A stretch of DNA of 64,000 nt from an uncultured Ruminococcus sp. (GTDB lineage: Bacteria; Bacillota; Clostridia; Oscillospirales; Ruminococcaceae), in contig CAMKLV010000001.1 in the NCBI GenBank assembly GCA_946413695.1, positions 21,131 through 85,130 of the forward strand, in the 5' to 3' direction. Under the pieces are notes generated by a model. That model was not told the DNA's origin and did not search any database. It was given only the letters and a program-made list of their open reading frames with translations. Each line of letters opens with the position of its first letter. Position 1 is the first letter of the stretch. Positions 8,666 through 17,687 of the stretch are shown piece by piece. The position numbers and the translations under genes are program-made.

Positions 8666-9937
8666 GTGAAACATAAAAAAAGAGGAAGAAAGATTTACAC
8701 CTATCAGGCGCGCAACCGCCGTGTATTCAGTGATTATCATCCGCTGCGGTCGGCGGTCGGCACTGTGCTGACACTGCTGATTGTTGCAGTACTCGGATTT
8801 GTCGGCTACAACGTAATCGGTCCGATTGTAACACGGCTGCACAAGGAGGAAATCAGCCCGACACTGACTGCGGAGCCGTACTTCACAGAGGAGCCGCAGC
8901 AGGGGACAGAGCCTGCTCCGGATGCTGCGCAGCAGACAACTGTTACAGAAGCCGTCACAACCACAACTGCACCGGAAACAACTGTCACTACCACAACTGA
9001 GGCGTATCACGGCAAATATGGCGATGACATGGATGTTGCATACATGGCACCCGCAGATGCGCTGCAGAATCTTGATTCTGTCGAATCCGCTGCAAAGGCT
9101 TGCAAAGAAAAGGGCTGCACATCCATGATTCTGCCGCTGAAGCTCAATACCGGTGTTTTACAGTACGCTTCTTCTGTTGATAAGGCGCTTGCCTGCGGGG
9201 CATCGAATGATTCCCTGCTGACGCTCCGTGAGATCGTCAATGCTGCAAAGCGCTATGATATCTCTTGTATCGCGGAGATCTATACGCTTGAGGATCACAC
9301 TTTCCCGAATTACTTTATGGAAGGCTCTTACGTATTCAAAGACGGCACAACGCGTTGGCTGGATGATAATCCTGACGAGGGCGGAAAGCCGTGGCTCAAT
9401 CCGTTTGATACTGCAAGCGGCGACTACCTGGCGGGAATCGCAGCGGAAATCCAGAAAAGCGGTTTCACGCAGATCATCTGCAAGGGCACAATCTTCCCGA
9501 GCTTCTTCCATTCCGATGCAGAACTGCTCGGCAATCATATAGAGGATCCGGCGCAGCGCCGCGATGCCCTGCTGTCCGTGCTCAACCGCATCTCGGATGT
9601 TGCACCGACCGCCGGACTGTACGCCGATCTCGCAGGCATTTCGCAGAACACTGAAGAGGCGTTCCAGCCTGCCGACCTGCATATGTCATCGGTCTACATC
9701 AATATTGATCCGGCTGCGTTCACAGAAGCGTTTACGATCGGCGAACAGCGGTTTGATCCCGGTGCGCTTGCGTTCCGCGAAAAGATCGAATTACTCGCAG
9801 AAGCTGCAAGAATCGCATCCGGTTCACATGTTGTGATTCCGTGTCTGTGCGTGAAAGACATGACTGACACTGAGATTGACACTGCGGTTGAGGTTCTTTC
9901 CGAAAACGGCTTCAAAACAATCTGCATGCATGAATAA
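8666..9937 (+). CDS. Membrane-anchored exoprotein, putative glycoside-hydrolase-like (GHL/DUF4015-type) domain
   Basis: GTG start after GAGGAG. Basic N-terminus, one TM helix (VGTVLTLLIVAVLGFVGYNVI), a Thr-rich linker and a globular domain of about 300 aa. The family call is from memory of similar 'putative glycoside hydrolase' proteins and is weak. Confidence 0.4.
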   Translation: MKHKKRGRKIYTYQARNRRVFSDYHPLRSAVGTVLTLLIVAVLGFVGYNVIGPIVTRLHKEEISPTLTAEPYFTEEPQQGTEPAPDAAQQTTVTEAVTTTTAPETTVTTTTEAYHGKYGDDMDVAYMAPADALQNLDSVESAAKACKEKGCTSMILPLKLNTGVLQYASSVDKALACGASNDSLLTLREIVNAAKRYDISCIAEIYTLEDHTFPNYFMEGSYVFKDGTTRWLDDNPDEGGKPWLNPFDTASGDYLAGIAAEIQKSGFTQIICKGTIFPSFFHSDAELLGNHIEDPAQRRDALLSVLNRISDVAPTAGLYADLAGISQNTEEAFQPADLHMSSVYINIDPAAFTEAFTIGEQRFDPGALAFREKIELLAEAARIASGSHVVIPCLCVKDMTDTEIDTAVEVLSENGFKTICMHE

Positions 9938-10182: not shown

Positions 10183-10851
10183 ATGTCAGTAAACATCGCG
10201 ATCGACGGACCTTCGGGTGCCGGAAAAAGCACACTCGCACGCCGTCTGGCTGCAAATCTCGGCTTCATTTACGTTGATACCGGTGCGCTGTACCGGGCAA
10301 TTGCGCTCAGTATGCTGCGCCGGAACGCTGATACAGAAGAACAGATCATCGGCAGCCTGAAGGAGCTCGATGTAACACTCGGTTATCAGGACGGGGAACA
10401 GCATGTCTTCGCAAACGGCGAGGATGTGTCCGGACTCATCCGCACACCGGAGGTTACAATGGCAGCTTCTAAAGTTTCTGCAATTCCGGAGGTACGCAAG
10501 TATCTCTTTGATCTGCAGCAGAATCTTGCAAAAACAAATTCCGTTGTCATGGACGGCCGTGATATCGGAACCGTTGTGCTGCCGGATGCTGATGTCAAGA
10601 TCTTCCTGACCGCATCGCCGGAAAAGCGTGCTATGCGCCGCTATCTTGAAATGCAGGAAAAAAACATTGTCGGACAGACATATGAAGAAGTCCTTGCAGA
10701 TGTGATCCGCCGCGATGAGCAGGATATGAACCGTGAGATTGCGCCGCTCAGACAAGCGGAAGATGCGGTTCTGGTCGACACCTCAGACCTTGATCTGAAT
10801 GAATCTGAACAGCTGTTGCTGAAAGTATGTAAGGAGAAGCTCGAAACATGA
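10183..10851 (+). CDS. cmk: Cytidylate kinase
   Basis: IAIDGPSGAGKSTLARRLA P-loop, YVDTGALYRA and MDGRDIGTVVLPDA are typical Cmk motifs. RBS is GGAGGG. Confidence 0.92.
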   Translation: MSVNIAIDGPSGAGKSTLARRLAANLGFIYVDTGALYRAIALSMLRRNADTEEQIIGSLKELDVTLGYQDGEQHVFANGEDVSGLIRTPEVTMAASKVSAIPEVRKYLFDLQQNLAKTNSVVMDGRDIGTVVLPDADVKIFLTASPEKRAMRRYLEMQEKNIVGQTYEEVLADVIRRDEQDMNREIAPLRQAEDAVLVDTSDLDLNESEQLLLKVCKEKLET

Positions 10852-13220
10852 GTGGCTTTTATAAGTTTGCCATAGGTGTCATGCGGCTTGTCATGCCGTT
10901 ATGGTATAAAATTGATGCGGACGGGCTTGAGTATCTGCCGGAGGAAGGCGGTTATTTGTTTGTCAGTAACCACCGCAGCATGGCGGATCCGATCCTGATC
11001 GGCATTCAGAATCCTGCAGCGCAGTTCTGTTTTCTTGCAAAGCAGGAGCTTTTTGAAGACGGCTTTATCGGCTGGCTGCTCAAGAAGCTCGGCGCGATTG
11101 CAATCGACCGCGGAACCGGTGATACCGATCCGCTCGAGGAAATCATTTTCCGTCTGCAGAACGGCGATAACGCGCTGATTTTCCCGGAGGGTACACGTTC
11201 CAAAGACGGTACGCTCGGAAAATTCAAGACCGGCGCTGCACTGATCGCAGCACAGACAAATGTGCCTGTTGTTCCGGTCGGCATTTATTTTGATGATGAC
11301 GAGCTGCATTTCCGCAGCACAATTCATATTCGCTACGGTGAACCGTTCCGGATTCCGCAGACGGACCCGAAAAATCCGTCTCCTGCAGTTCTGAAGCAGA
11401 TCCGCCGCGAAATGACGGAAAATGTTTCCGCACTGCTGACAGCGGATAACGGATGGGGACCGAAAGCAATCGAAGTCAAAGAAAAATCCAGTTCAGATAC
11501 CGAAGAATCCGCAGAACCCGTGAAACGGAAATCAGCGGCTGAAAATCAGGAATCGGAGGGTACAGAAAAGAAAATGAGCAAGCACAATCAGAACGAAAAG
11601 AATCACAAGGAGAAGCCGGAAGAGGAAAAGGATATCTTCAAGGAAATTGAAGATGATATTGATGAGGAGATCTCTGATGAGATCGACGAAGCAGCTGAAA
11701 AGATCGAGGATGCTGCGGAAACTGTGAAAGAAACCGGCAAGAAGGCTGTTAAGGATACTGCCGACGCAATTGACGAGCTTGACGAAAAGGAAGAAAAGGC
11801 TGCGAAGAAAACCGCTTCTGCGATGAAGGCTTCTGCTCCGTTCAAAAAGCGTCTCAAGGAAGAAGACACAGAGCTTGATGAAAAGATCGCGGAGGACGAG
11901 GAAGATATCTTTGACGAGTCCAAGAAATCCGAGAAGGACGATGCACCGGAAACTGCTGATGAACCGGAAGAAAAGTTCTTTGAGGAAGAGGATTTCGATG
12001 AGGACTTTGATTTTGATGAAAAGCCCGGTCTGTTCGGCGGCTTCTCTCTGAAAAATCCGTTCAAGAAGAAAAAGAGCGTCGCAGATTTCGATGATGAGTT
12101 CGATGAGGACATCGACGAGGATAACATCGACAACAGCTACGAAGAAGATGATCTCGATGATGATGAGTATGATGACGAGGTTGTCGGCAGAAGAATCGAC
12201 TACGGCAAGATCGCTCTGATCCTGACTTTTGTCATTCTCGGCATCTTTGCAATTGACTTCCTCGTTCGTCTGTGGAAGGATTATCAGAACGCAAAGGGTC
12301 TGCTCGATCTCCAGAATCAGGCACAGGCAGTTGAATCCATGGTGGATTCCAGCCTTGCTGAAACGGATGTCGCACCGGCTGTTACCGAAGCGATCGAGAC
12401 ACTTGCAACAGAAGTTACCACAACCGTTTCTGCGGAAACCGCTGTCACCACAACCACCACGGAAGCTTTTGTTGATAACAGAGATACACAGACCATCGAG
12501 GTCGGAAACGATACCGTTCACTCCGGCAGCATGATCCTGATCGACGGCACACACGCACAGCTCAATACACCGGCACTCGTACCGTTCTCCAGCTTCCCGT
12601 ATCAGCATCTGCGTCTGGTCAGCACCGAAATGACTGTTGACGCTTCTCTTGCTACCCCGATCACCAACTGGTTCAACGATTTCTTCGCTGCAACCGGTCT
12701 CGGCAACGTGATGGTCTACTCCACCACCGGCACACCGGGCTATCCGCCTTACTCCGTTGCAATTCCGGAGCGTACCGCAGGTCTCTCGCTCGATCTCTCG
12801 ATCCTGAACGAGGCTGCTGCAAGCCACGCGCCGTATACGCCGGACGGCAACTACGCATGGCTGACCGAGCATGCAGCAGATTACGGCTTCATCGTCCGTT
12901 ATCCCGCAGGCAAGGCAGATAAAACCGGTCAGGAGGGCTTGACATGGCACTTCCGTTATGTCGGCGCACCGCATGCAAAGTACATGTATGACAATGATCT
13001 CTGCCTTGAGGAATATCTCGAGGAGATCAAGAAGCATACTGTCAGCACCGATCATCTGGAAACAACTGTAAACGGCATCAACTATGAAATGTACTATGTT
13101 GCTGCTGATACCGCAGGTACAACTACGCAGGTCAAGTATCCGGTTGCTGCAGACGGTTCCACACCGATGATTTCCGGTGATAATGACGGCGGATTTATTG
13201 TCGCTGTTGTGAAGCAGTAA
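10848..13220 (+). CDS. plsC: Fusion protein: PlsC-type 1-acyl-sn-glycerol-3-phosphate acyltransferase / acidic disordered region / TM helix / VanY (peptidase M15B)-like domain
   Basis: Single uninterrupted 790-codon ORF with an ATGA overlap onto the cmk stop. The N-terminus carries NHRSMADP (HX4D) and FPEGTRS acyltransferase motifs. Roughly aa 205-452 are E/D/K-rich low complexity. A TM helix (IALILTFVILGIFAIDFLV) follows, then a Thr-rich linker. The C-terminus AWLTEHAADYGFIVRYPAGKADKTGQEGLTWHFRYVG resembles the VanY core. Confidence 0.8.
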   Translation: MSGFYKFAIGVMRLVMPLWYKIDADGLEYLPEEGGYLFVSNHRSMADPILIGIQNPAAQFCFLAKQELFEDGFIGWLLKKLGAIAIDRGTGDTDPLEEIIFRLQNGDNALIFPEGTRSKDGTLGKFKTGAALIAAQTNVPVVPVGIYFDDDELHFRSTIHIRYGEPFRIPQTDPKNPSPAVLKQIRREMTENVSALLTADNGWGPKAIEVKEKSSSDTEESAEPVKRKSAAENQESEGTEKKMSKHNQNEKNHKEKPEEEKDIFKEIEDDIDEEISDEIDEAAEKIEDAAETVKETGKKAVKDTADAIDELDEKEEKAAKKTASAMKASAPFKKRLKEEDTELDEKIAEDEEDIFDESKKSEKDDAPETADEPEEKFFEEEDFDEDFDFDEKPGLFGGFSLKNPFKKKKSVADFDDEFDEDIDEDNIDNSYEEDDLDDDEYDDEVVGRRIDYGKIALILTFVILGIFAIDFLVRLWKDYQNAKGLLDLQNQAQAVESMVDSSLAETDVAPAVTEAIETLATEVTTTVSAETAVTTTTTEAFVDNRDTQTIEVGNDTVHSGSMILIDGTHAQLNTPALVPFSSFPYQHLRLVSTEMTVDASLATPITNWFNDFFAATGLGNVMVYSTTGTPGYPPYSVAIPERTAGLSLDLSILNEAAASHAPYTPDGNYAWLTEHAADYGFIVRYPAGKADKTGQEGLTWHFRYVGAPHAKYMYDNDLCLEEYLEEIKKHTVSTDHLETTVNGINYEMYYVAADTAGTTTQVKYPVAADGSTPMISGDNDGGFIVAVVKQ

Positions 13221-13370: not shown

Positions 13371-13928
13371 ATGAACGACGATCAGATCATCGCACTACTT
13401 GAGGCGCGCAGCGAGCGGGCACTCGATGAAATCCGGCAGAAATACGGCAAAAGCTGTCAGACAATTGCATTTCGCTGCCTCGGGAACATGCTGGATGCTG
13501 ATGAGATCGTGAATGACACGTTGCTCCACACCTGGAACGCAATCCCGCCGGCGAGACCAAAAAATCTGTTTTCGTTTCTTGCAGCAATCACAAGACGCAG
13601 TGCAATCAACCGCTTTCAGCTGGAACATGCCGCAAAACGCGGCGGTATGGAAACGGCTGAAGCAATCGACGAACTGGAAGACTGTATTCCATCCGGAGAA
13701 AATGTCATGAAGCAGATCGAACAACGCGAAATTTCTGCGGCGCTTAACTCATATTTGCAATCGCTGAAACCGGAAATAAGGGCAATTATGGTACAGCGAT
13801 ATGTGAATCTGCATTCCGTTCGGGAAATCGCCGATGCATATCAGATCTCCGAAAGCAAAGTCAAGCTCGTTCTGATGCGTGCGAGAAAGAAACTGCGCAA
13901 ATATCTCGAGAAGGAGGAATTGATTTGA
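13371..13928 (+). CDS. ECF-type RNA polymerase sigma-70 family factor
   Basis: Region 2-like (DEIVNDTLLHTWNAIPP...FSFLAAITRRSAINRF) and region 4-like (RAIMVQRYVNLHSVREIADAYQISESKVKLVLMRARKKL) segments. Confidence 0.8.
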   Translation: MNDDQIIALLEARSERALDEIRQKYGKSCQTIAFRCLGNMLDADEIVNDTLLHTWNAIPPARPKNLFSFLAAITRRSAINRFQLEHAAKRGGMETAEAIDELEDCIPSGENVMKQIEQREISAALNSYLQSLKPEIRAIMVQRYVNLHSVREIADAYQISESKVKLVLMRARKKLRKYLEKEELI

Positions 13929-15604
13929 ATAAATACGATCTCTTTCGTGCGTTTCAGGATGTTGATCCCGGGTTAATGGAGGAGGCAGAGCGTCTGACGG
14001 TACACAGCCCCGAATACCAAACGGAGAAAACGCCGGATGCTCCGAAGCTTCACAGAAGACATGAGGAGGATTTCATGGGAAAACACGGCAAAACATTCCG
14101 GACAATGACCGGAATCGCTGCGGCTGTTGCAATCTGCAGCATCGGTGTCGCAGGATACTTCGCGATTCATCCCAAGGTTGCTGAGCAGCCGGATTCCGGC
14201 GCCTCAGCGGTTGCGGAAGTGACTGACATCACAGAACAGACAGCCCTGTCGCATGCGGAATCGACAGTCACCGCAACCCAGACTGTGACCAGCCCGCTTT
14301 CCGAGGATTTTGAGGAGGAGACAGCACCGCCGCAGAATGATACAGAAGAAAGTTCTGTGGATTGGTCAGAGCTTGACCAGACATTCGCGGATAACAGCTT
14401 CGCCTACGGCGCCGGATTTGTAAAAAGCTCCGACTTAACAGAGACAATCGTCAAACCGGTTGATGCGGAGAACGGGAAGAAAATGTCGCTCAATCTGTCA
14501 ATTATGTACGAAATGGGCGGCACTGATACGGCGATGCAAATTCCGGCAACGGTTGTGCTGATGCAGGACGGTGAAATCATCCCGTTTGCGCTGGCAGAAA
14601 ACGGAAAAACGGAGACATCTCAAACGGTTGAAATTGAAATTCCGGAAAACAAATATACAAATGTGCTGACGCTCATTTTGATGGACAGTCTCAGCGACCG
14701 CTCAATTGAGAAAACCATCGGGCTTGTCAGTGAGGTTGACGGCGTCATAGTGATCAAGCAGCGGGAGGTCTCGGAGCCAGATTGGACACAAAAATATCTG
14801 GATGTCACATTGACAAGTGACCTGCTCACAAATGATAAAGATCAGTATGCGGAGATTTATGATAAACTCAGTGCAATCAGCGGGATCCAGACAGTCAAGC
14901 GAAACACTGAACATGAGGTCTGGGACACGAACACCGCCACGCTCCAGAAGATCTGGTTTACGCCGCACTGCCGGACAAATTACAGCACACTGACTGCAGC
15001 AGTTACGTACCATAAATCCCCGGCGCGATTTCCCGGCATCGGTCCGACAACCGCTTCAACGCAGGTTCAGCTCTATTGCGAAAAGCCGGACGAAAGCACG
15101 GATTCCTCTGCGGCGTATTACACCGCATCTGCCGATGATTATATTGAGTATCCTGAGGCGGTCAGAGGTGCAAATATAGGCGGTTCAACCGGTATTGCAA
15201 TCGGTAAGTGTCAGAACTACAGCTATGACGCAGGTGCAAACAAATATCAAATCAACAACAGTTCGTGGAGTCAGGCCTTGCCGCTCAACCGGAACGAGCT
15301 ATACCTCAAGGCACATTTCGATGAAAAAAATAACATAATGGGTGATGTATACCCGAAGAACTACTATGCGCTCGTGCTCTGCGACGGCAAACCGGTCGGG
15401 CTTGCAAACGGCAAAGACGCGGTGTTGTTTGAAGCGCGCAATGAATCAACCTTAAATCTCAAGCTGACACTCGACGATTCAATTGCTGACGGTCAGCACA
15501 GCTTCTCTGTCTTCATCGCGGATGCTTCTGCGCAGCCCAGAGCAGAGGGGGAGGAGTTCAAGTACTATCCGTATGACAGCTCTGTCTTCGATATTCAATC
15601 ATAA
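13925..15604 (+). CDS. Membrane-anchored protein co-transcribed with the ECF sigma factor (candidate non-canonical anti-sigma factor)
   Basis: TTG start overlaps the sigma stop, after AAGGAGGA. It has a cytoplasmic N-terminus of about 75 aa, one TM helix (IAAAVAICSIGVAGYFAI) and an extracytoplasmic region of about 460 aa with no family I recognise. No zf-HC2 motif is present. Confidence 0.45.
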   Translation: MNKYDLFRAFQDVDPGLMEEAERLTVHSPEYQTEKTPDAPKLHRRHEEDFMGKHGKTFRTMTGIAAAVAICSIGVAGYFAIHPKVAEQPDSGASAVAEVTDITEQTALSHAESTVTATQTVTSPLSEDFEEETAPPQNDTEESSVDWSELDQTFADNSFAYGAGFVKSSDLTETIVKPVDAENGKKMSLNLSIMYEMGGTDTAMQIPATVVLMQDGEIIPFALAENGKTETSQTVEIEIPENKYTNVLTLILMDSLSDRSIEKTIGLVSEVDGVIVIKQREVSEPDWTQKYLDVTLTSDLLTNDKDQYAEIYDKLSAISGIQTVKRNTEHEVWDTNTATLQKIWFTPHCRTNYSTLTAAVTYHKSPARFPGIGPTTASTQVQLYCEKPDESTDSSAAYYTASADDYIEYPEAVRGANIGGSTGIAIGKCQNYSYDAGANKYQINNSSWSQALPLNRNELYLKAHFDEKNNIMGDVYPKNYYALVLCDGKPVGLANGKDAVLFEARNESTLNLKLTLDDSIADGQHSFSVFIADASAQPRAEGEEFKYYPYDSSVFDIQS

Positions 15605-15608
15605 CAGC

Positions 15609-15646
15609 AAAGCCGCATACCGGAACAGATATGCGGCTTCATTTTT
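15609..15646. terminator. Bidirectional terminator between convergent genes
   Basis: AAGCCGCAT-12 nt-ATGCGGCTT hairpin, flanked by a T-run on the plus strand and a shorter U-run on the minus strand. Confidence 0.7.
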
Positions 15647-17687
15647 ACAGCAGATGCGCGATTCCGACAAGTATCATGCAAAGCACAGTGCCGATCACGG
15701 TCGGCAGCAGGAATGCGGCAAATGTCCTGCGACGGCTGCGCGTCTCCTTGTAGACTGTCAGCAGTGTTGTCGCACAGGGAGAGTGAAACAGCGTGAAGAT
15801 CAGGAAACACGAAGCGGTCAGCAGCGTCCAGCCGTGCGCAGTCAGCAGCGTGTGCAGCGATTGCAGTGACTCGTAATCAGTCAGGGCTCCGGTGCCGAGA
15901 TAGGCTGTCAGCGAAACCGGCAGGACAATCTCATTCGCAGGCAGCCCGAGCAGAAATGCCAGCAGCATCACGCCATCCATCCCAATCAGACAGCCGAGCG
16001 GCTGCATGATATCTGCAAGCCTTTGCAGCAGCGTCTCACCGGAGAGACTGATATTTGCAAGAATCCAGATCAGCAGGCTGACCGGCGCCGCCGTCATGAC
16101 CGCTCTGCCGAGAACAAAGACCGTTCTGTCGAGCACAGAGCGCACGATCACATGCCCGATCTGCGGGCGTCGGTAAGGCGGCATCTCCAGCACAAACGAG
16201 GACGGCTCCCCGCGCAGAACTGTCCTTCCGAGCAGTGCGGATGCTGCAAACGTCACGCCGACACTGAACAGAATCAGTGCTGTCATCATGGCTGCCGCAC
16301 GGAAAGAGGAACGCATATCATCACCCGCAAAGAACACAGTCACAATCGCAAGCAGCGCCGGAAACCTGCCGTTGCAGGGGACAAGTGCATTCGTCAGAAT
16401 CGCGATCAGGCGCTCGCGTTTGCTCTGGATGATCCGGCATTCCGTGACACCGACCGCGTTGCACCCGAACCCCATTGTCATGGTCAGCGCCTGCTTGCCG
16501 CATGCCCTGCACTTTGCGCAGCAGGTATCGAGATTGAATGCGATTCGCGGCAGGAGCCCCGCATCCTCAAGCAGGGTAAACAGCGGAAAGAAGATCGCCA
16601 TCGGCGGCAGCATGACAGAAACCACCCAGCCGGTGCCGCGCAAAACACCGTCAATCAGGGAGCCGGAGAGCCACGGCGGCAGGTTCAGCAGATCCGAGGT
16701 CTGATGCAGGGAACTGCAAATCGCAGTAAACAATTCAAACAGCAGGGCAGAAGGATAGTTTGCGCCGACCATAGTCAGCCAGAAAACCGCAAGCAGCATC
16801 AGGAGCATGACCGGATACTTCCACGGCGCAGCGGTCAGCAGGCGGTCGAGCCGATTGTTCATTCTGCTTGCATAATCCGGAATCCTGATCGTCTCCGCAC
16901 AAATCGCACCCGCCTCGCGCAGCGCATCCTGATGTGTATACCCTTCGAAATCCCGATTCAGATCGGGGATGTGACTGACAGCATCAAGCAGGGATGTCAG
17001 AGTGCGTTTCTGCTTCGCACTGATGCCGATCACCGGAACATGCAGCCGATCTGAAATCCCCGCTAAATCCGGCTCAATCTGCTTTTTCTTCGCTTCATCC
17101 ATGAGATTCATGCAGAGAATGACATGCTCCTGCGCGGCAAGCAGCTCGATCGCGAGGGCAATACCCCGAACCGGACAGGTCGCATCGCAGACGCAGATCA
17201 CCAGATCATGCGGGATTTCGCGCAGCAGCCTGCCGGTCTCTGCTTCTTCAGCTGTCTCCGATCGAATGGCATATGTACCCGGCGTATCAATACAACGTAC
17301 ACGAGTACCGTCAGATATCATCCAGCCCGCAGCGCCGGAAACGGTCTTACCGCACCAGTTTCCGGTATGCTGATGCAAGCCGGTCAATGCATTGAAAACG
17401 GTACTTTTCCCGACATTCGGATTGCCTGCAAGCATGATCGTTTTTGTGTGCGTCAGCAGCCGGACAAAAATCCTTGCACAATCCTCCTTCCGGAGCGCCA
17501 GCGTGACACCGTGTATCTCAAACGCAACCGGAGAGCCGCCGCTGCCGAACAGCTTGACTTTCACTCTTGTTTCCGGTATGATACCGAGCTCAGCGAAACG
17601 GTTTATTTCGTCAGTCGATGCGTGTATTTCGGCTATCACTGCCGCTGCATCGGCAGGCAGCTCTGACAGCGGTACAAGATCATTCAA
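15645..17687 (-). CDS. feoB: Ferrous iron transporter FeoB with fused N-terminal FeoA domain
   Basis: The FeoA-like first ~75 aa (LSELP...VIAEI...RFAELGIIPETRVKV...GGSPVAFEIHGVTLALRKEDCARIFV) is followed by a G-domain (GNPNVGKSTVFNALTG) and a polytopic FeoB core. The start is TTG. Confidence 0.9.
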   Translation of the reverse strand: MNDLVPLSELPADAAAVIAEIHASTDEINRFAELGIIPETRVKVKLFGSGGSPVAFEIHGVTLALRKEDCARIFVRLLTHTKTIMLAGNPNVGKSTVFNALTGLHQHTGNWCGKTVSGAAGWMISDGTRVRCIDTPGTYAIRSETAEEAETGRLLREIPHDLVICVCDATCPVRGIALAIELLAAQEHVILCMNLMDEAKKKQIEPDLAGISDRLHVPVIGISAKQKRTLTSLLDAVSHIPDLNRDFEGYTHQDALREAGAICAETIRIPDYASRMNNRLDRLLTAAPWKYPVMLLMLLAVFWLTMVGANYPSALLFELFTAICSSLHQTSDLLNLPPWLSGSLIDGVLRGTGWVVSVMLPPMAIFFPLFTLLEDAGLLPRIAFNLDTCCAKCRACGKQALTMTMGFGCNAVGVTECRIIQSKRERLIAILTNALVPCNGRFPALLAIVTVFFAGDDMRSSFRAAAMMTALILFSVGVTFAASALLGRTVLRGEPSSFVLEMPPYRRPQIGHVIVRSVLDRTVFVLGRAVMTAAPVSLLIWILANISLSGETLLQRLADIMQPLGCLIGMDGVMLLAFLLGLPANEIVLPVSLTAYLGTGALTDYESLQSLHTLLTAHGWTLLTASCFLIFTLFHSPCATTLLTVYKETRSRRRTFAAFLLPTVIGTVLCMILVGIAHLL

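What the first reader, a model, noticed from the sequence alone, without database searches (positions are those of the whole stretch)
10848..13220. One ORF fuses a PlsC acyltransferase, a ~250-aa polyacidic linker, a TM helix and a VanY-like domain with degenerate catalytic motifs
The 790-codon frame is uninterrupted. It contains, in order:
- An LPA acyltransferase domain (NHRSMADP, FPEGTRS).
- A very acidic E/D/K-rich low-complexity stretch, roughly nt 11460-12203.
- One TM helix, about 12208-12270.
- A Thr-rich linker.
- A C-terminal domain whose core (AWLTEHAADYGFIVRYPAGKADKTGQEGLTWHFRYVG) looks like D-Ala-D-Ala carboxypeptidase VanY / peptidase M15B.

By eye, the M15B zinc and catalytic positions are altered:
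- The SxHxxGxAxD motif reads PERTAGLSLD, with Arg (12771-12773) in place of the first His ligand.
- The E-x-x-H motif reads LTWH (12939-12950), with Leu in place of the Glu.

The predicted topology puts phospholipid synthesis on the cytoplasmic face and a peptidoglycan-peptide-binding, probably non-catalytic, module outside. A disordered polyanion lies between them. Physical coupling of membrane lipid synthesis to the wall is an attractive hypothesis, and I do not recognise this architecture as described.
Basis: partly seen in the sequence, partly recalled or inferred. Interest (0 to 1): 0.7.

Follow-up and report, generated by a model that had tools for sequence, protein, structure and literature searches.

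The report
PlsC fused to dead wall-peptidase domain
A gut/rumen Oscillospiraceae bacterium makes one membrane-spanning protein with an apparently working phospholipid-synthesis enzyme (PlsC) inside the cell and a catalytically dead cell-wall peptidase (VanY/LdcB type) outside; the same two genes have joined at least three separate times, which suggests that membrane and wall building are physically linked in this group.

Summary
ORF 10848-13220 (790 aa) holds, in order: a PlsC acyltransferase with intact motifs, a 250-aa acidic disordered stretch, one TM helix, an S/T-rich linker, and a complete VanXY-G/VanY-A-type fold.

In the VanY-like fold the first zinc His is Arg642, invariant in 30 of 30 relatives. 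The catalytic Glu is Leu698, and is never Glu in the family. The helix carrying the catalytic Arg is also deleted.

New findings:
- The architecture recurs in about 35 protein clusters from Oscillospiraceae MAGs, so it is not an assembly artefact.
- It arose by loss of the plsC stop codon in a cmk-plsC-dvanY operon. Close relatives still have two genes.
- The acidic "linker" is the old cytoplasmic tail of the downstream protein. Its Shine-Dalgarno sequence (GGAGG, 11555-11559) and start codon (Met243, 11574) survive in frame, so a second, shorter product is possible.
- Fusion happened at least three times.
- The TM helix is as conserved as the enzyme core.
- Only the degenerate clade is linked to plsC. 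Its basal members sit next to a DacA-type carboxypeptidase gene.

The function, tethering or coupling lipid synthesis to the wall, is inferred and not shown. This is a new variant of known kinds and is moderately to highly interesting.

The parts
10183..10851 (+). cmk (cytidylate kinase), first gene of the conserved cmk-plsC(-dvanY) operon; its stop overlaps the fusion ORF start (ATGA)
   Evidence: PF02224 E 3.4e-73; cmk lies directly upstream in every related locus examined
10848..13220 (+). Whole fused ORF, 790 aa: PlsC, acidic tail, TM helix, S/T linker, degenerate VanY-like ectodomain
10848..11447 (+). PlsC (LPLAT/AGPAT) acyltransferase domain, aa 1-200, with a short N-terminal interfacial helix (aa 2-19). 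Motifs: I NHRSMADP 10968-10991, II GAIAIDRG 11091-11114, III FPEGTRS 11181-11201, IV VPVVPVGI 11262-11285
   Evidence: PF01553 100 bits; TmPlsC 5kym E 7e-20; motif residues at least 90% conserved in the family; mean pairwise identity 77%
11448..11573 (+). Former PlsC C-terminal tail plus former intergenic spacer, now read through in frame (aa 201-242)
   Evidence: In unfused relatives L094 and L095 the plsC stop codon(s) fall in this stretch
11555..11559 (+). Relic, possibly still active, Shine-Dalgarno GGAGG, 14 nt upstream of the Met243 ATG
   Evidence: CGGAGG-N13/14-ATGAGYAA is identical in fused loci (window, L001, L014) and unfused loci (L094, L095); L096 has GAGGAG-N12. At protein level, E followed by a GNN-coded residue occurs in 25 of 26 fused members within a linker that is only 20% identical overall
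11574..11576 (+). Met243 ATG: ancestral start codon of the downstream gene and candidate internal initiation site (would give a 548-aa product)
   Evidence: Met243 is at least 90% conserved; P0037 and P0038 begin exactly here as separate genes
11574..12188 (+). Acidic disordered cytoplasmic tail (aa 243-447; 83 D/E, 31 K/R). Its length ranges from 25 to 508 aa across the family
   Evidence: pLDDT below 50 in the full-length model; mean identity 20%; only weak short tandem repeats in the DNA
11835..11858 (+). Conserved basic-aromatic short motif 1 (APFKKRLK; family consensus PFKxxNPFKK)
   Evidence: conserved in both fused and unfused long-tail forms
12027..12074 (+). Conserved basic-aromatic short motif 2 (GLFGGFSLKNPFKKKK)
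12198..12269 (+). Single TM helix with a near-invariant sequence (DYGKIALILTFVILGIFAIDFLVR)
   Evidence: Kyte-Doolittle maximum 2.82; 14 invariant positions; 77% mean identity, equal to the PlsC core. The same motif occurs in all PER-clade standalone proteins but not in canonical relatives
12270..12470 (+). Extracellular Ser/Thr-rich disordered stalk
12483..13217 (+). Degenerate VanY/VanXY-G/LdcB-type (peptidase M15B, LAS fold) ectodomain, aa 546-790, including the VanXY-G/VanY-A-type C-terminal beta extension (13083-13217)
   Evidence: AF2 pLDDT 92.7, pTM 0.90; Foldseek 4f78 E 9.6e-18, TM 0.76/0.78; profile against PDB 4f78 E 9.7e-33
12717..12752 (+). Site where canonical relatives have SGYRTxxxQ plus a helix of about 20 aa. 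Here it reads YSTTGTPGYPPY, and the Arg120-equivalent is lost
   Evidence: alignment A3
12765..12794 (+). Degenerate motif 1, PERTAGLSLD (canonical SEHxTGLAxD): Pro640 replaces Ser, Arg642 replaces the zinc His, Asp649 is retained
12939..12950 (+). Degenerate motif 2, LTWH (canonical EPWH): Leu698 replaces the catalytic Glu, His701 is retained

Best explanation
Shown. This is a genuine, evolutionarily maintained gene fusion found in a clade of uncultured gut and rumen Oscillospiraceae. It arose when the stop codon of plsC was lost in a cmk-plsC-dvanY operon, so that PlsC is now read through into the downstream protein. That downstream protein consists of a long acidic cytoplasmic tail, a highly conserved TM helix, an S/T-rich stalk and a VanXY-G/LdcB-fold ectodomain. 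The PlsC half keeps all four acyltransferase motifs. The ectodomain keeps the fold but has lost four of the six residues checked in the catalytic apparatus: the first zinc His is Arg, the catalytic Glu is a hydrophobic residue, the Ser of SxH is Pro, and the helix carrying the catalytic Arg is deleted. It therefore cannot be a zinc carboxypeptidase.

Inferred. The product is a bitopic membrane protein with its N-terminus inside and its C-terminus outside. The cytoplasmic PlsC makes phosphatidic acid at the inner leaflet. The dead peptidase outside still uses its substrate cleft to hold uncross-linked peptidoglycan stem peptides. The invariant Arg642 plausibly replaces Zn2+ and the lost Arg as the partner of the peptide's C-terminal carboxylate. 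Because the wall does not move, this would tether the lipid-synthesis enzyme to places where such peptides are exposed, most likely new wall, and so couple membrane growth to wall growth in space.

The old ribosome-binding site and start codon (Met243) survive in frame, so the gene may also produce the 548-aa tail-TM-ectodomain protein on its own.
For: The architecture is real and conserved. About 35 clusters at 90% identity carry PF01553+PF02557, with identity down to 44% and several seen on 6-10 independent contigs.

Origin. The unfused relatives L094 and L095 have a plsC stop, then 21-36 nt, then a gene starting at the Met243 equivalent. The CGGAGG-N13/14-ATGAGYAA junction is identical in fused and unfused loci. 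Short-tail unfused forms (P0122, P0125, P0126, P0127, L015) all lie directly after plsC, twice with a 4-nt overlap.

Independent fusions. P0035 (AGGGAG...ATGATGAAC, MNRRIDYG) and P0124 (AAGGAG-N10-ATG, MTTNRRIDWG) each sit next to unfused sisters in the tree.

Specificity. Of 64 VanY-like loci in species-representative genomes, only the two with the PER motif and the DYG-TM helix have cmk-plsC upstream.

Dead active site. Arg642 is present in 30/30 members, position 698 is never Glu, and Asp649 and His701 are invariant. The Arg-bearing helix is deleted. Residue roles come from PMC4087270.

Purifying selection on the dead domain and the TM helix. Mean identity is 62% and 77%, against 20% for the tail.

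Fold. pLDDT 92.7; 4f78 TM 0.76/0.78.

Selection on read-through. Insertions of 100-170 aa upstream of Met243 in P0018, P0021, P0022, P0024 and P0025 all stay open in frame.
Against: There is no direct evidence that the ectodomain binds peptidoglycan or anything else. I could not read the model coordinates, so the position of Arg642 in the pocket is inferred from the alignment only. The TM motif and the Arg substitution predate the link to plsC: the basal members P0129 and P0130 sit next to a Peptidase_S11 gene instead. The module therefore has a function that does not require PlsC. The retained internal RBS and ATG, and the switching between fused and unfused states, are also compatible with a nearly neutral fusion. 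TIGR00530 scores 95.9, just under its cut-off of 102.95. Whether this is the genome's only PlsC is unknown. The tree is neighbour-joining without support values.
Confidence: 0.5

Rival explanations
1. Transmembrane sensor or regulator. The dead peptidase reports wall state, for example the abundance of uncross-linked stem peptides. The strictly conserved TM helix, possibly together with the two basic-aromatic NPFKK motifs in the acidic tail, transmits this signal to raise or lower PlsC activity. The result would be homeostatic rather than spatial coupling.
For: The TM helix is as conserved as the enzyme core (77%) and contains polar or small invariant residues (D451, G453, T460, D470, R474), which is unusual for a passive anchor. 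The tail carries two conserved motifs in an otherwise unconstrained region. An acidic spacer arose convergently in the independent fusion P0124.
Against: A disordered tail of 25-508 aa is a poor conduit for conformational signals. P0035 functions with a 25-aa linker that lacks the NPFKK motifs. The TM motif predates the association with PlsC. The full-length model gives no confident inter-domain contact.
Confidence: 0.2
2. Near-neutral fusion of two translationally coupled genes. The working units are PlsC and the tail-TM-dVanY protein, the latter made from the internal start. They may form a complex or may simply share an operon. Read-through adds little, and the dead peptidase's real partner is something else, such as a DD-carboxypeptidase or a PBP, by analogy with dLytM regulators.
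For: The internal SD and ATG are conserved at nucleotide level in fused genes. Fused and unfused states alternate among close relatives: L014 is fused and L094 is not, differing by CAG versus TAA. Basal clade members are linked to Peptidase_S11, not plsC. The cmk-plsC junction of the same operon also fuses in Ruminococcus, so fusions in this tightly packed operon come easily.
Against: The fusion is maintained across a clade with sequence divergence of about 50%. It arose at least three times. Long lineage-specific insertions upstream of Met243 remain open in frame. plsC linkage is exclusive to the degenerate clade, 2 of 2 against 0 of about 60. Together these argue for a specific PlsC-dVanY relationship and for selection on the read-through product.
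Confidence: 0.2
3. The C-terminal domain is still an active VanY/LdcB-type peptidase, or a new metal-independent hydrolase.
For: Asp649, His701, Glu641, Trp700 and the RYP/KxxxTG framework are invariant. The fold is intact.
Against: The first zinc His is Arg in 30/30 members. The catalytic Glu is never present. The Arg120-equivalent helix is deleted and the Ser of SxH is Pro. SpLdcB loses all activity in EDTA and most of it in the E204A variant (PMC4087270).
Confidence: 0.04
4. Assembly or sequencing artefact: a missed stop codon or frameshift joins two genes.
For: Close relatives do have two separate genes.
Against: The same open frame occurs in about 35 clusters from many independent samples and assemblers. 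P0001 is 99% identical and seen on 6 contigs; P0033 is seen on 10 contigs. The unfused relatives differ by base substitutions that create in-frame stops, not by indels.
Confidence: 0.02

Closest known systems
VanXY-G / VanY-A-type D,D-peptidases (PDB 4f78; NCBIfam NF000149, NF000472)
   Same: Same fold over the whole 250-aa ectodomain, including the C-terminal beta extension (TM 0.76/0.78; profile E 9.7e-33). VanY enzymes share the layout of an N-terminal membrane anchor with an extracellular domain.
   Different: The zinc His is Arg, the catalytic Glu is Leu, the Ser of SxH is Pro and the Arg-bearing helix is deleted, so no peptidase chemistry is expected. The gene is not in a van resistance cluster. 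The protein is fused to PlsC.
LdcB/DacB LD-carboxypeptidase (SpLdcB 4ox5, BsLdcB/YodJ 4ox3; PMC4087270)
   Same: Homologous M15B domain, with a gapless alignment across both catalytic motifs. The cleft recognises peptidoglycan stem peptides. LdcB acts after a DacA-type DD-carboxypeptidase, and basal members of the degenerate clade are encoded directly after a Peptidase_S11 gene.
   Different: The catalytic set His153/Glu204/Arg120 is missing here. Only Asp160 and His207 equivalents remain.
PlsC, 1-acyl-sn-glycerol-3-phosphate acyltransferase (TmPlsC, PDB 5kym; PF01553)
   Same: All four acyltransferase motifs are intact. The gene occupies the cmk-plsC operon position. E 7e-20 to 5kym.
   Different: Only about 18 residues precede the point that aligns to TmPlsC residue 61, so there is one short helix in place of the N-terminal two-helix membrane motif (title of Robertson et al. 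2017, as cited in PMC9541089). The C-terminus continues for 590 aa across the membrane.
Degenerate LytM (dLytM, peptidase M23) factors: EnvC, NlpD, SpoIIQ, Csd2
   Same: These are LAS-superfamily metallopeptidase folds that have lost metal ligands and act as regulators, scaffolds or binders in the cell envelope. This is from my own knowledge; Csd2's degenerate active site is described in PMC5053510.
   Different: They belong to a different family (M23, not M15B). None is fused to a lipid-synthesis enzyme. The resemblance is an analogy, not membership.
Cmk-PlsC fusion proteins of Ruminococcus (PF02224+PF01553, about 450 aa)
   Same: Same operon. The PlsC part is about 40% identical. They show that tightly overlapping genes of this operon fuse readily.
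   Different: The fusion is at the other junction and both partners are cytoplasmic. There is no TM helix and no wall-facing domain.

Membership tests
PlsC / LPLAT-AGPAT acyltransferases (PF01553) | Profile match above the curated threshold | tested here: met
   PF01553 100 bits against a cut-off of 23, covering 2-131 of 132 profile positions. The narrower TIGR00530 scores 95.9 against a cut-off of 102.95, just below.
PlsC / LPLAT-AGPAT acyltransferases (PF01553) | Motif I HX4D (catalytic His/Asp) | tested here: met
   NHRSMADP, with H42 and D47 both at least 90% conserved in the family; aligned to TmPlsC.
PlsC / LPLAT-AGPAT acyltransferases (PF01553) | Motifs II (xxxIDR), III (FPEGTR) and IV (PxxPV) | tested here: met
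   GAIAIDRG 82-89, FPEGTRS 112-118, VPVVPVGI 139-146; residues nearly invariant.
PlsC / LPLAT-AGPAT acyltransferases (PF01553) | LPA acyltransferase activity, and being the cell's housekeeping PlsC | not testable with these tools
   Only the cmk-plsC synteny supports this. No paralogue is present in the 64-kb window. The rest of the genome was not available.
PlsC / LPLAT-AGPAT acyltransferases (PF01553) | N-terminal two-helix membrane-positioning motif as in TmPlsC | tested here: inconclusive
   The alignment begins at query residue 19 and 5kym residue 61. Only one predicted helix (aa 2-19) precedes the core.
Peptidase M15B (VanY / VanXY / LdcB) | Fold and profile match | tested here: met
   PF02557 37.9 bits against a cut-off of 25, C-terminal half of the profile only. 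Foldseek 4f78 TM 0.76/0.78 over the whole domain. Profile E 9.7e-33.
Peptidase M15B (VanY / VanXY / LdcB) | First zinc ligand, the His of SxHxxGxAxD (SpLdcB His153) | tested here: not met
   Arg642, in 30 of 30 family members.
Peptidase M15B (VanY / VanXY / LdcB) | Zinc ligand Asp (SpLdcB Asp160) | tested here: met
   Asp649, invariant.
Peptidase M15B (VanY / VanXY / LdcB) | Zinc ligand His of ExxH (SpLdcB His207) | tested here: met
   His701, invariant.
Peptidase M15B (VanY / VanXY / LdcB) | Catalytic Glu of ExxH (SpLdcB Glu204) | tested here: not met
   Leu698. The family has L, M, I, V, K, Q or N here, never E.
Peptidase M15B (VanY / VanXY / LdcB) | Arg/Lys that pairs with the substrate carboxylate (SpLdcB Arg120; SGYRTxxxQ motif) | tested here: not met
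   Canonical relatives have SGYRTxxxQ followed by a helix of about 20 aa. The PER clade has YSTTGTPGY with a deletion of about 20 aa, and the aligned position (G628) is variable. This rests on a MAFFT alignment and was not checked in three dimensions.
Peptidase M15B (VanY / VanXY / LdcB) | Carboxypeptidase or dipeptidase activity | not testable with these tools
   Predicted absent from the residue pattern. EDTA abolishes SpLdcB activity and E204A strongly reduces it (PMC4087270).
Degenerate LAS-fold envelope regulators (dLytM type: EnvC, NlpD, SpoIIQ) | Metallopeptidase fold that has lost metal ligands yet remains under purifying selection | tested here: met
   (62% mean identity in the ectodomain). 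The fold is M15B, not M23, so this is a working analogy and not family membership.
Degenerate LAS-fold envelope regulators (dLytM type: EnvC, NlpD, SpoIIQ) | Acts by binding a partner enzyme or peptidoglycan rather than by catalysis | not testable with these tools
   Inference only.

The most novel reading that the evidence does not exclude
The protein is a built-in envelope-coordination device. The dead LdcB-like ectodomain reads the state of the wall through uncross-linked stem peptides. Through the near-invariant TM helix and the tail's basic-aromatic NPFKK motifs, which might bind the anionic product phosphatidic acid, it positions or tunes the essential PlsC step. Phospholipid output would then be matched to peptidoglycan growth. 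The in-frame internal start would set the ratio of tethered to free modules.
Probability: 0.15. Interest if true: 0.85.

Novelty: new variant of a known kind. Interest (0 to 1): 0.62.

Why it matters
How Gram-positive bacteria match membrane synthesis to wall synthesis is an open question, and few direct molecular links are known. Here evolution has repeatedly welded an essential-pathway lipid enzyme to a wall-facing module. It has also kept the two genes adjacent, and often translationally coupled, wherever they are not welded. That is a classic Rosetta-stone signal for a physical or functional partnership. It points to a specific experiment: does the dead VanY domain bind muropeptides, and does it localise or regulate PlsC?

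The finding also adds a clear M15B example to the catalogue of envelope pseudo-enzymes. The step-wise path can be traced:
- active enzyme
- Arg-for-His form with the helix deletion, encoded next to a DacA-type gene
- loss of the catalytic Glu, encoded next to plsC
- fusion to PlsC

Finally, it shows how a fusion can keep an internal ribosome-binding site and start codon, which leaves the event easy to reverse.

The limits are that the clade is narrow and uncultured, and that nothing here demonstrates function.

Tried and rejected
1. Artefact hypothesis. Rejected: the open frame recurs in many independent assemblies, and the unfused relatives differ by substitutions rather than indels.

2. Active-peptidase hypothesis. 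Rejected on family-wide residue patterns.

3. Neighbouring genes as functional partners. I considered DUF4015 upstream, the ECF sigma factor with a 559-aa TM protein downstream, and feoB. Only cmk is conserved next to the fusion. feoB is syntenic in some loci but lies on the other strand. The sigma pair is unique to this window.

4. The full-length AF2 model was run to look for contacts between PlsC and the TM helix. It was uninformative (pLDDT 58.6, PlsC part poorly modelled with 30 similar sequences), and coordinates and PAE are not exposed. For the same reason I could not inspect the pocket geometry around Arg642.

5. Linker growth by tandem DNA repeats. Only three weak, short arrays were found, so this does not explain the tail.

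6. Paralogues of PlsC, VanY or S11 in the window. None found.

7. Literature searches for a PlsC-VanY fusion or a degenerate M15B domain. Nothing relevant was found. The Lipocone/VanZ paper mentions VanY only in other contexts. The TmPlsC structure paper (PMC5616210) is not held.

The count of 2 family members among species representatives is therefore a lower bound.

Full report
OBSERVATION

The ORF at 10848-13220 (+) is a single open frame of 790 codons. Its ATG overlaps the stop codon of cmk (ATGA).

Pfam places PF01553 Acyltransferase at aa 22-146 (E 1.2e-28) and PF02557 VanY at aa 645-706 (E 1.9e-9). Both are above their curated cut-offs. NCBIfam gives partial matches to vanY-A/F/M, vanXY-G, vanXY and LdcB models.

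A sliding hydropathy scan finds one TM-grade segment, aa 451-474, with a maximum 19-residue Kyte-Doolittle score of 2.82. The region aa 201-450 holds 93 D/E and 41 K/R. An S/T-rich stretch follows the TM helix.

THE C-TERMINAL DOMAIN IS A COMPLETE BUT DEAD M15B FOLD

phmmer against PDB sequences gives VanXY-G (4f78, E 4e-18) and B. subtilis LdcB/YodJ (4ox3, E 1.7e-16). The alignment across both catalytic motifs has no gaps. A family profile raises 4f78 to E 9.7e-33.

An AlphaFold2 model of aa 535-790 is confident (pLDDT 92.7, pTM 0.90). It superposes on 4f78 over its full length (Foldseek E 9.6e-18, TM 0.76/0.78). The N-terminal half that Pfam did not align therefore belongs to the same fold, as does the C-terminal beta extension typical of VanXY-G and VanY-A.

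The LdcB structure paper defines the catalytic set (PMC4087270). The zinc ligands are His153, Asp160 and His207. Glu204 is invariant. Arg120 (Arg or Lys in orthologues) pairs with the substrate carboxylate. Ser151 contacts the substrate. The equivalents here are:
- First zinc His: Arg642.
- Zinc Asp: Asp649.
- Second zinc His: His701.
- Catalytic Glu: Leu698.
- Ser of SxH: Pro640.

In an alignment of 30 family members, Arg642, Asp649 and His701 are invariant. Position 698 is L, M, I, V, K, Q or N, and never Glu.

I also aligned the domain with canonical relatives recovered by an exhaustive profile search of 1.84 billion representative proteins. Canonical proteins read SGYRTxxxQ, then about 20 aa, then PGYSEHHTGLALD, then EPWH. 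This clade reads VYSTTGTPGY, then a deletion of about 20 aa, then IPERTAGLSLD, then LTWH. The Arg120-equivalent and its helix are therefore gone as well.

Four of the six positions checked in the catalytic apparatus are lost, so the domain cannot be a zinc carboxypeptidase. It is nevertheless under purifying selection, with 62% mean pairwise identity against 20% for the acidic tail.

THE PlsC HALF LOOKS FUNCTIONAL

All four acyltransferase motifs are present: NHRSMADP, GAIAIDRG, FPEGTRS and VPVVPVGI. Their key residues are at least 90% conserved.

The domain matches TmPlsC (5kym) at E 7e-20. The alignment starts at query residue 19 and TmPlsC residue 61, so only one short N-terminal helix precedes the core. 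Mean identity within the family is 77%.

THE FUSION IS REAL, RECURRENT AND EXPLAINED

A search of 5.8 billion proteins finds about 35 clusters with both Pfam domains. All come from Oscillospiraceae MAGs and metagenomes. Identity ranges from 99% to 44% and length from 552 to 1052 aa. Several clusters are seen on multiple independent contigs. NCBI names them simply '1-acyl-sn-glycerol-3-phosphate acyltransferase'.

The only conserved neighbour is cmk, directly upstream.

The profile search also recovered standalone proteins of 320-360 aa. They begin directly at the same TM helix (M-x-[KR]-R-x-DYG...ILGIFAxDF..RR) and carry the PER..G..D Arg substitution. Their contexts are informative:
- P0122, P0125, P0126, P0127 and the Ruminococcus sp. 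SIG542 locus L015 are each encoded immediately downstream of a separate plsC of 191-218 aa, which itself follows cmk. Two of these pairs overlap by 4 nt.
- P0037 (L094) and P0038 (L095) are long-tail versions. In them plsC (223 and 232 aa) ends with a stop codon. After 36 and 21 nt, a gene of 727 and 861 aa starts with MSKQNQ or MSNHRQ, exactly the equivalent of Met243 in the window protein.

The junction DNA reads CGGAGG-N13/14-ATGAGYAA in three fused loci (window, L001, L014) and in both unfused loci (L094, L095). L094 has TAA where fused L014 has CAG. L095 has two in-frame stops. A third long-tail subclade (L096) keeps GAGGAG-N12-ATGAGCAAG.

In the protein alignment, the residues before Met243 are E followed by G, V, D, A or E in 25 of 26 fused members. 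Those five residues are exactly the GNN-coded set. This is a footprint of nucleotide-level conservation of GAGG inside a linker that is otherwise 20% identical.

I draw three conclusions:
- The acidic 'linker' is the ancestral cytoplasmic N-terminal tail of the downstream protein.
- The fusion is the loss of the plsC stop codon.
- The old Shine-Dalgarno sequence (11555-11559) and start codon (11574) persist in frame, so internal initiation giving a 548-aa product is plausible but untested.

INDEPENDENT EVENTS

P0035 (552 aa, 25-aa linker) has the junction AGGGAG...ATGATGAAC, encoding MNRRIDYG. This matches the RBS and start of short-tail standalone genes such as L004.

P0124 (663 aa) has AAGGAG-N10-ATG immediately before MTTNRRIDWG. 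Its own acidic linker of about 200 aa lies upstream of that relic start, so an acidic spacer arose there separately.

In a neighbour-joining tree of the TM-plus-ectodomain module, P0035 and P0124 sit next to unfused sisters (P0122 and P0123). Unfused P0037 and P0038 are nested among fused long-tail members. The tree has no support values. It indicates at least three fusion events, or a mixture of fusions and fissions.

In several lineages, insertions of 100-170 aa lie between the PlsC core and Met243, and all remain open in frame. This argues that read-through is under selection.

SPECIFICITY AND HISTORY

Among 64 VanY-like loci from species-representative genomes, only the two with the PER motif and the DYG-TM helix (L014, L015) have cmk-plsC upstream. 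None of the roughly 55 canonical SEH/ExWH loci does.

The basal PER-clade members P0129 and P0130 already have Arg-for-His, the helix deletion and the conserved TM motif. They still keep the Glu (ESWH, EPWH), and they are encoded directly after a Peptidase_S11 (DacA-type DD-carboxypeptidase) gene.

The inferred order of events is:
1. An LdcB-like enzyme paired with a DD-carboxypeptidase gene.
2. Loss of zinc binding and gain of a specific TM helix.
3. Relocation behind plsC and loss of the Glu.
4. Fusion to PlsC.

The TM helix is 77% identical across fused members, equal to the PlsC core, and has 14 invariant positions. Canonical relatives have unrelated, variable anchors.

MECHANISM (INFERENCE)

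PlsC needs cytoplasmic acyl donors, and there is only one TM segment. The topology must therefore be N-in and C-out, the same as for VanY-type anchored enzymes.

The most economical reading has three parts. PlsC works at the inner leaflet. The ectodomain, which keeps its cleft framework (Glu641, Tyr685, Trp700, His701, Arg684, Arg703 and others invariant), binds stem peptides without cutting them. Binding to the immobile wall restricts where the enzyme sits.

Arg642 is invariant, and it lies where Zn2+ held the product carboxylate in LdcB (PMC4087270). It is an attractive carboxylate-binding substitute, but this is untested.

The rival explanations are these, with their weights given in the Rival explanations section:
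- A signalling role through the conserved TM helix.
- A near-neutral fusion in which the internal start makes the real working protein.
- Residual catalytic activity.
- An assembly artefact.

COMPARISON WITH WHAT IS KNOWN

As a homologue, the C-terminus belongs to peptidase family M15B. As an enzyme it fails three defining catalytic features that were tested here, so it should be called a pseudo-peptidase.

The nearest functional analogy is the degenerate LytM (M23) factors such as EnvC, NlpD, SpoIIQ and Csd2. These are also LAS-fold proteins that lost metal ligands and act by binding. This is from my own knowledge; Csd2 is described in PMC5053510.

I found no paper describing a PlsC-VanY fusion or a degenerate M15B envelope factor. 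The sequences are in public databases but are annotated only as PlsC.

VERDICT

This is a new variant built from known parts: a recurrent Rosetta-stone fusion linking an apparently housekeeping phospholipid-synthesis enzyme to a wall-facing pseudo-enzyme, with a traceable evolutionary path and a retained internal start.

It is restricted to a narrow uncultured clade, and its function is unproven. Interest 0.62.

Noticed in passing
window 10183-10851 with 10848-11447; proteins P0039-P0120: The other junction of the same operon also fuses. Cmk-PlsC fusion proteins (PF02224+PF01553, about 440-470 aa) are widespread in Ruminococcus, for example P0063 from Ruminococcus sp. YE71. In the window, cmk and plsC overlap by ATGA but remain separate.
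   Followed up: partly
window 11835-11858 and 12027-12074: Two conserved basic-aromatic short motifs ([FL]x[LIF]xNPF[KR]K: APFKKRLK and GLFGGFSLKNPFKKKK) sit in the otherwise unconstrained acidic tail. They are conserved in both fused and unfused long-tail forms and absent from short-tail forms. They might bind membrane or a partner protein; their role is unexplained.
   Followed up: partly
P0121 (367 aa; metagenomic, no locus fetched): Its ectodomain is nearly identical to that of the P0037 lineage, but its N-terminus and TM helix (MEKRKIQTLYPL...LMILLPVCAAVLIIVLICFIAG) are unrelated and lack the conserved DYG-TM motif. It could be a paralogue or a recombinant.
   Followed up: no
L006 1970-4072; L012 2050-4099; L013 961-3010: Basal members of the degenerate clade (P0129, P0130) have Arg-for-His but keep the Glu. 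They are encoded 13-25 nt downstream of a Peptidase_S11 (DacA-type DD-carboxypeptidase) gene, which suggests an older partnership of this module with peptidoglycan peptide trimming.
   Followed up: partly
P0133, P0134, P0137-P0140: Other Clostridial VanY-like proteins of about 330 aa have independently degenerate active sites: SELNTG/DVTH, SEYHSG..Q/IPYI, SEIITG..N, AESASG, HTEH, and Asp replaced by Asn. Pseudo-VanY ectodomains may be common in this protein family.
   Followed up: no
window 8666-9937: A DUF4015 putative glycosyl hydrolase (E 1.1e-12) with an N-terminal TM segment and a Thr-rich stalk (TTVTEAVTTTTAPETTVTTTTEA) similar in style to the S/T stalk of the fusion protein. It is not conserved next to the fusion in other loci.
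   Followed up: partly
window 13371-13928 and 13925-15604: An ECF-type sigma factor, followed with a 4-nt overlap by a 559-aa protein with one TM segment and no Pfam match. This is probably a sigma/anti-sigma pair. It is unique to this window among the loci compared.
   Followed up: partly
window 15645-17687 (-); L014 6929-9001; L095 4564-6591; L096 6790-8871: A FeoA-FeoB fusion gene on the opposite strand lies downstream of the plsC-dvanY gene in several family members. This is shared synteny and probably phylogenetic rather than functional.
   Followed up: no
L097 2058-4049 (P0124): A third, independent PlsC-dVanY fusion acquired its own acidic spacer of about 200 aa (E/D/T/H-rich) upstream of the relic start codon. 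It is convergent in composition with the long-tail lineage.
   Followed up: partly
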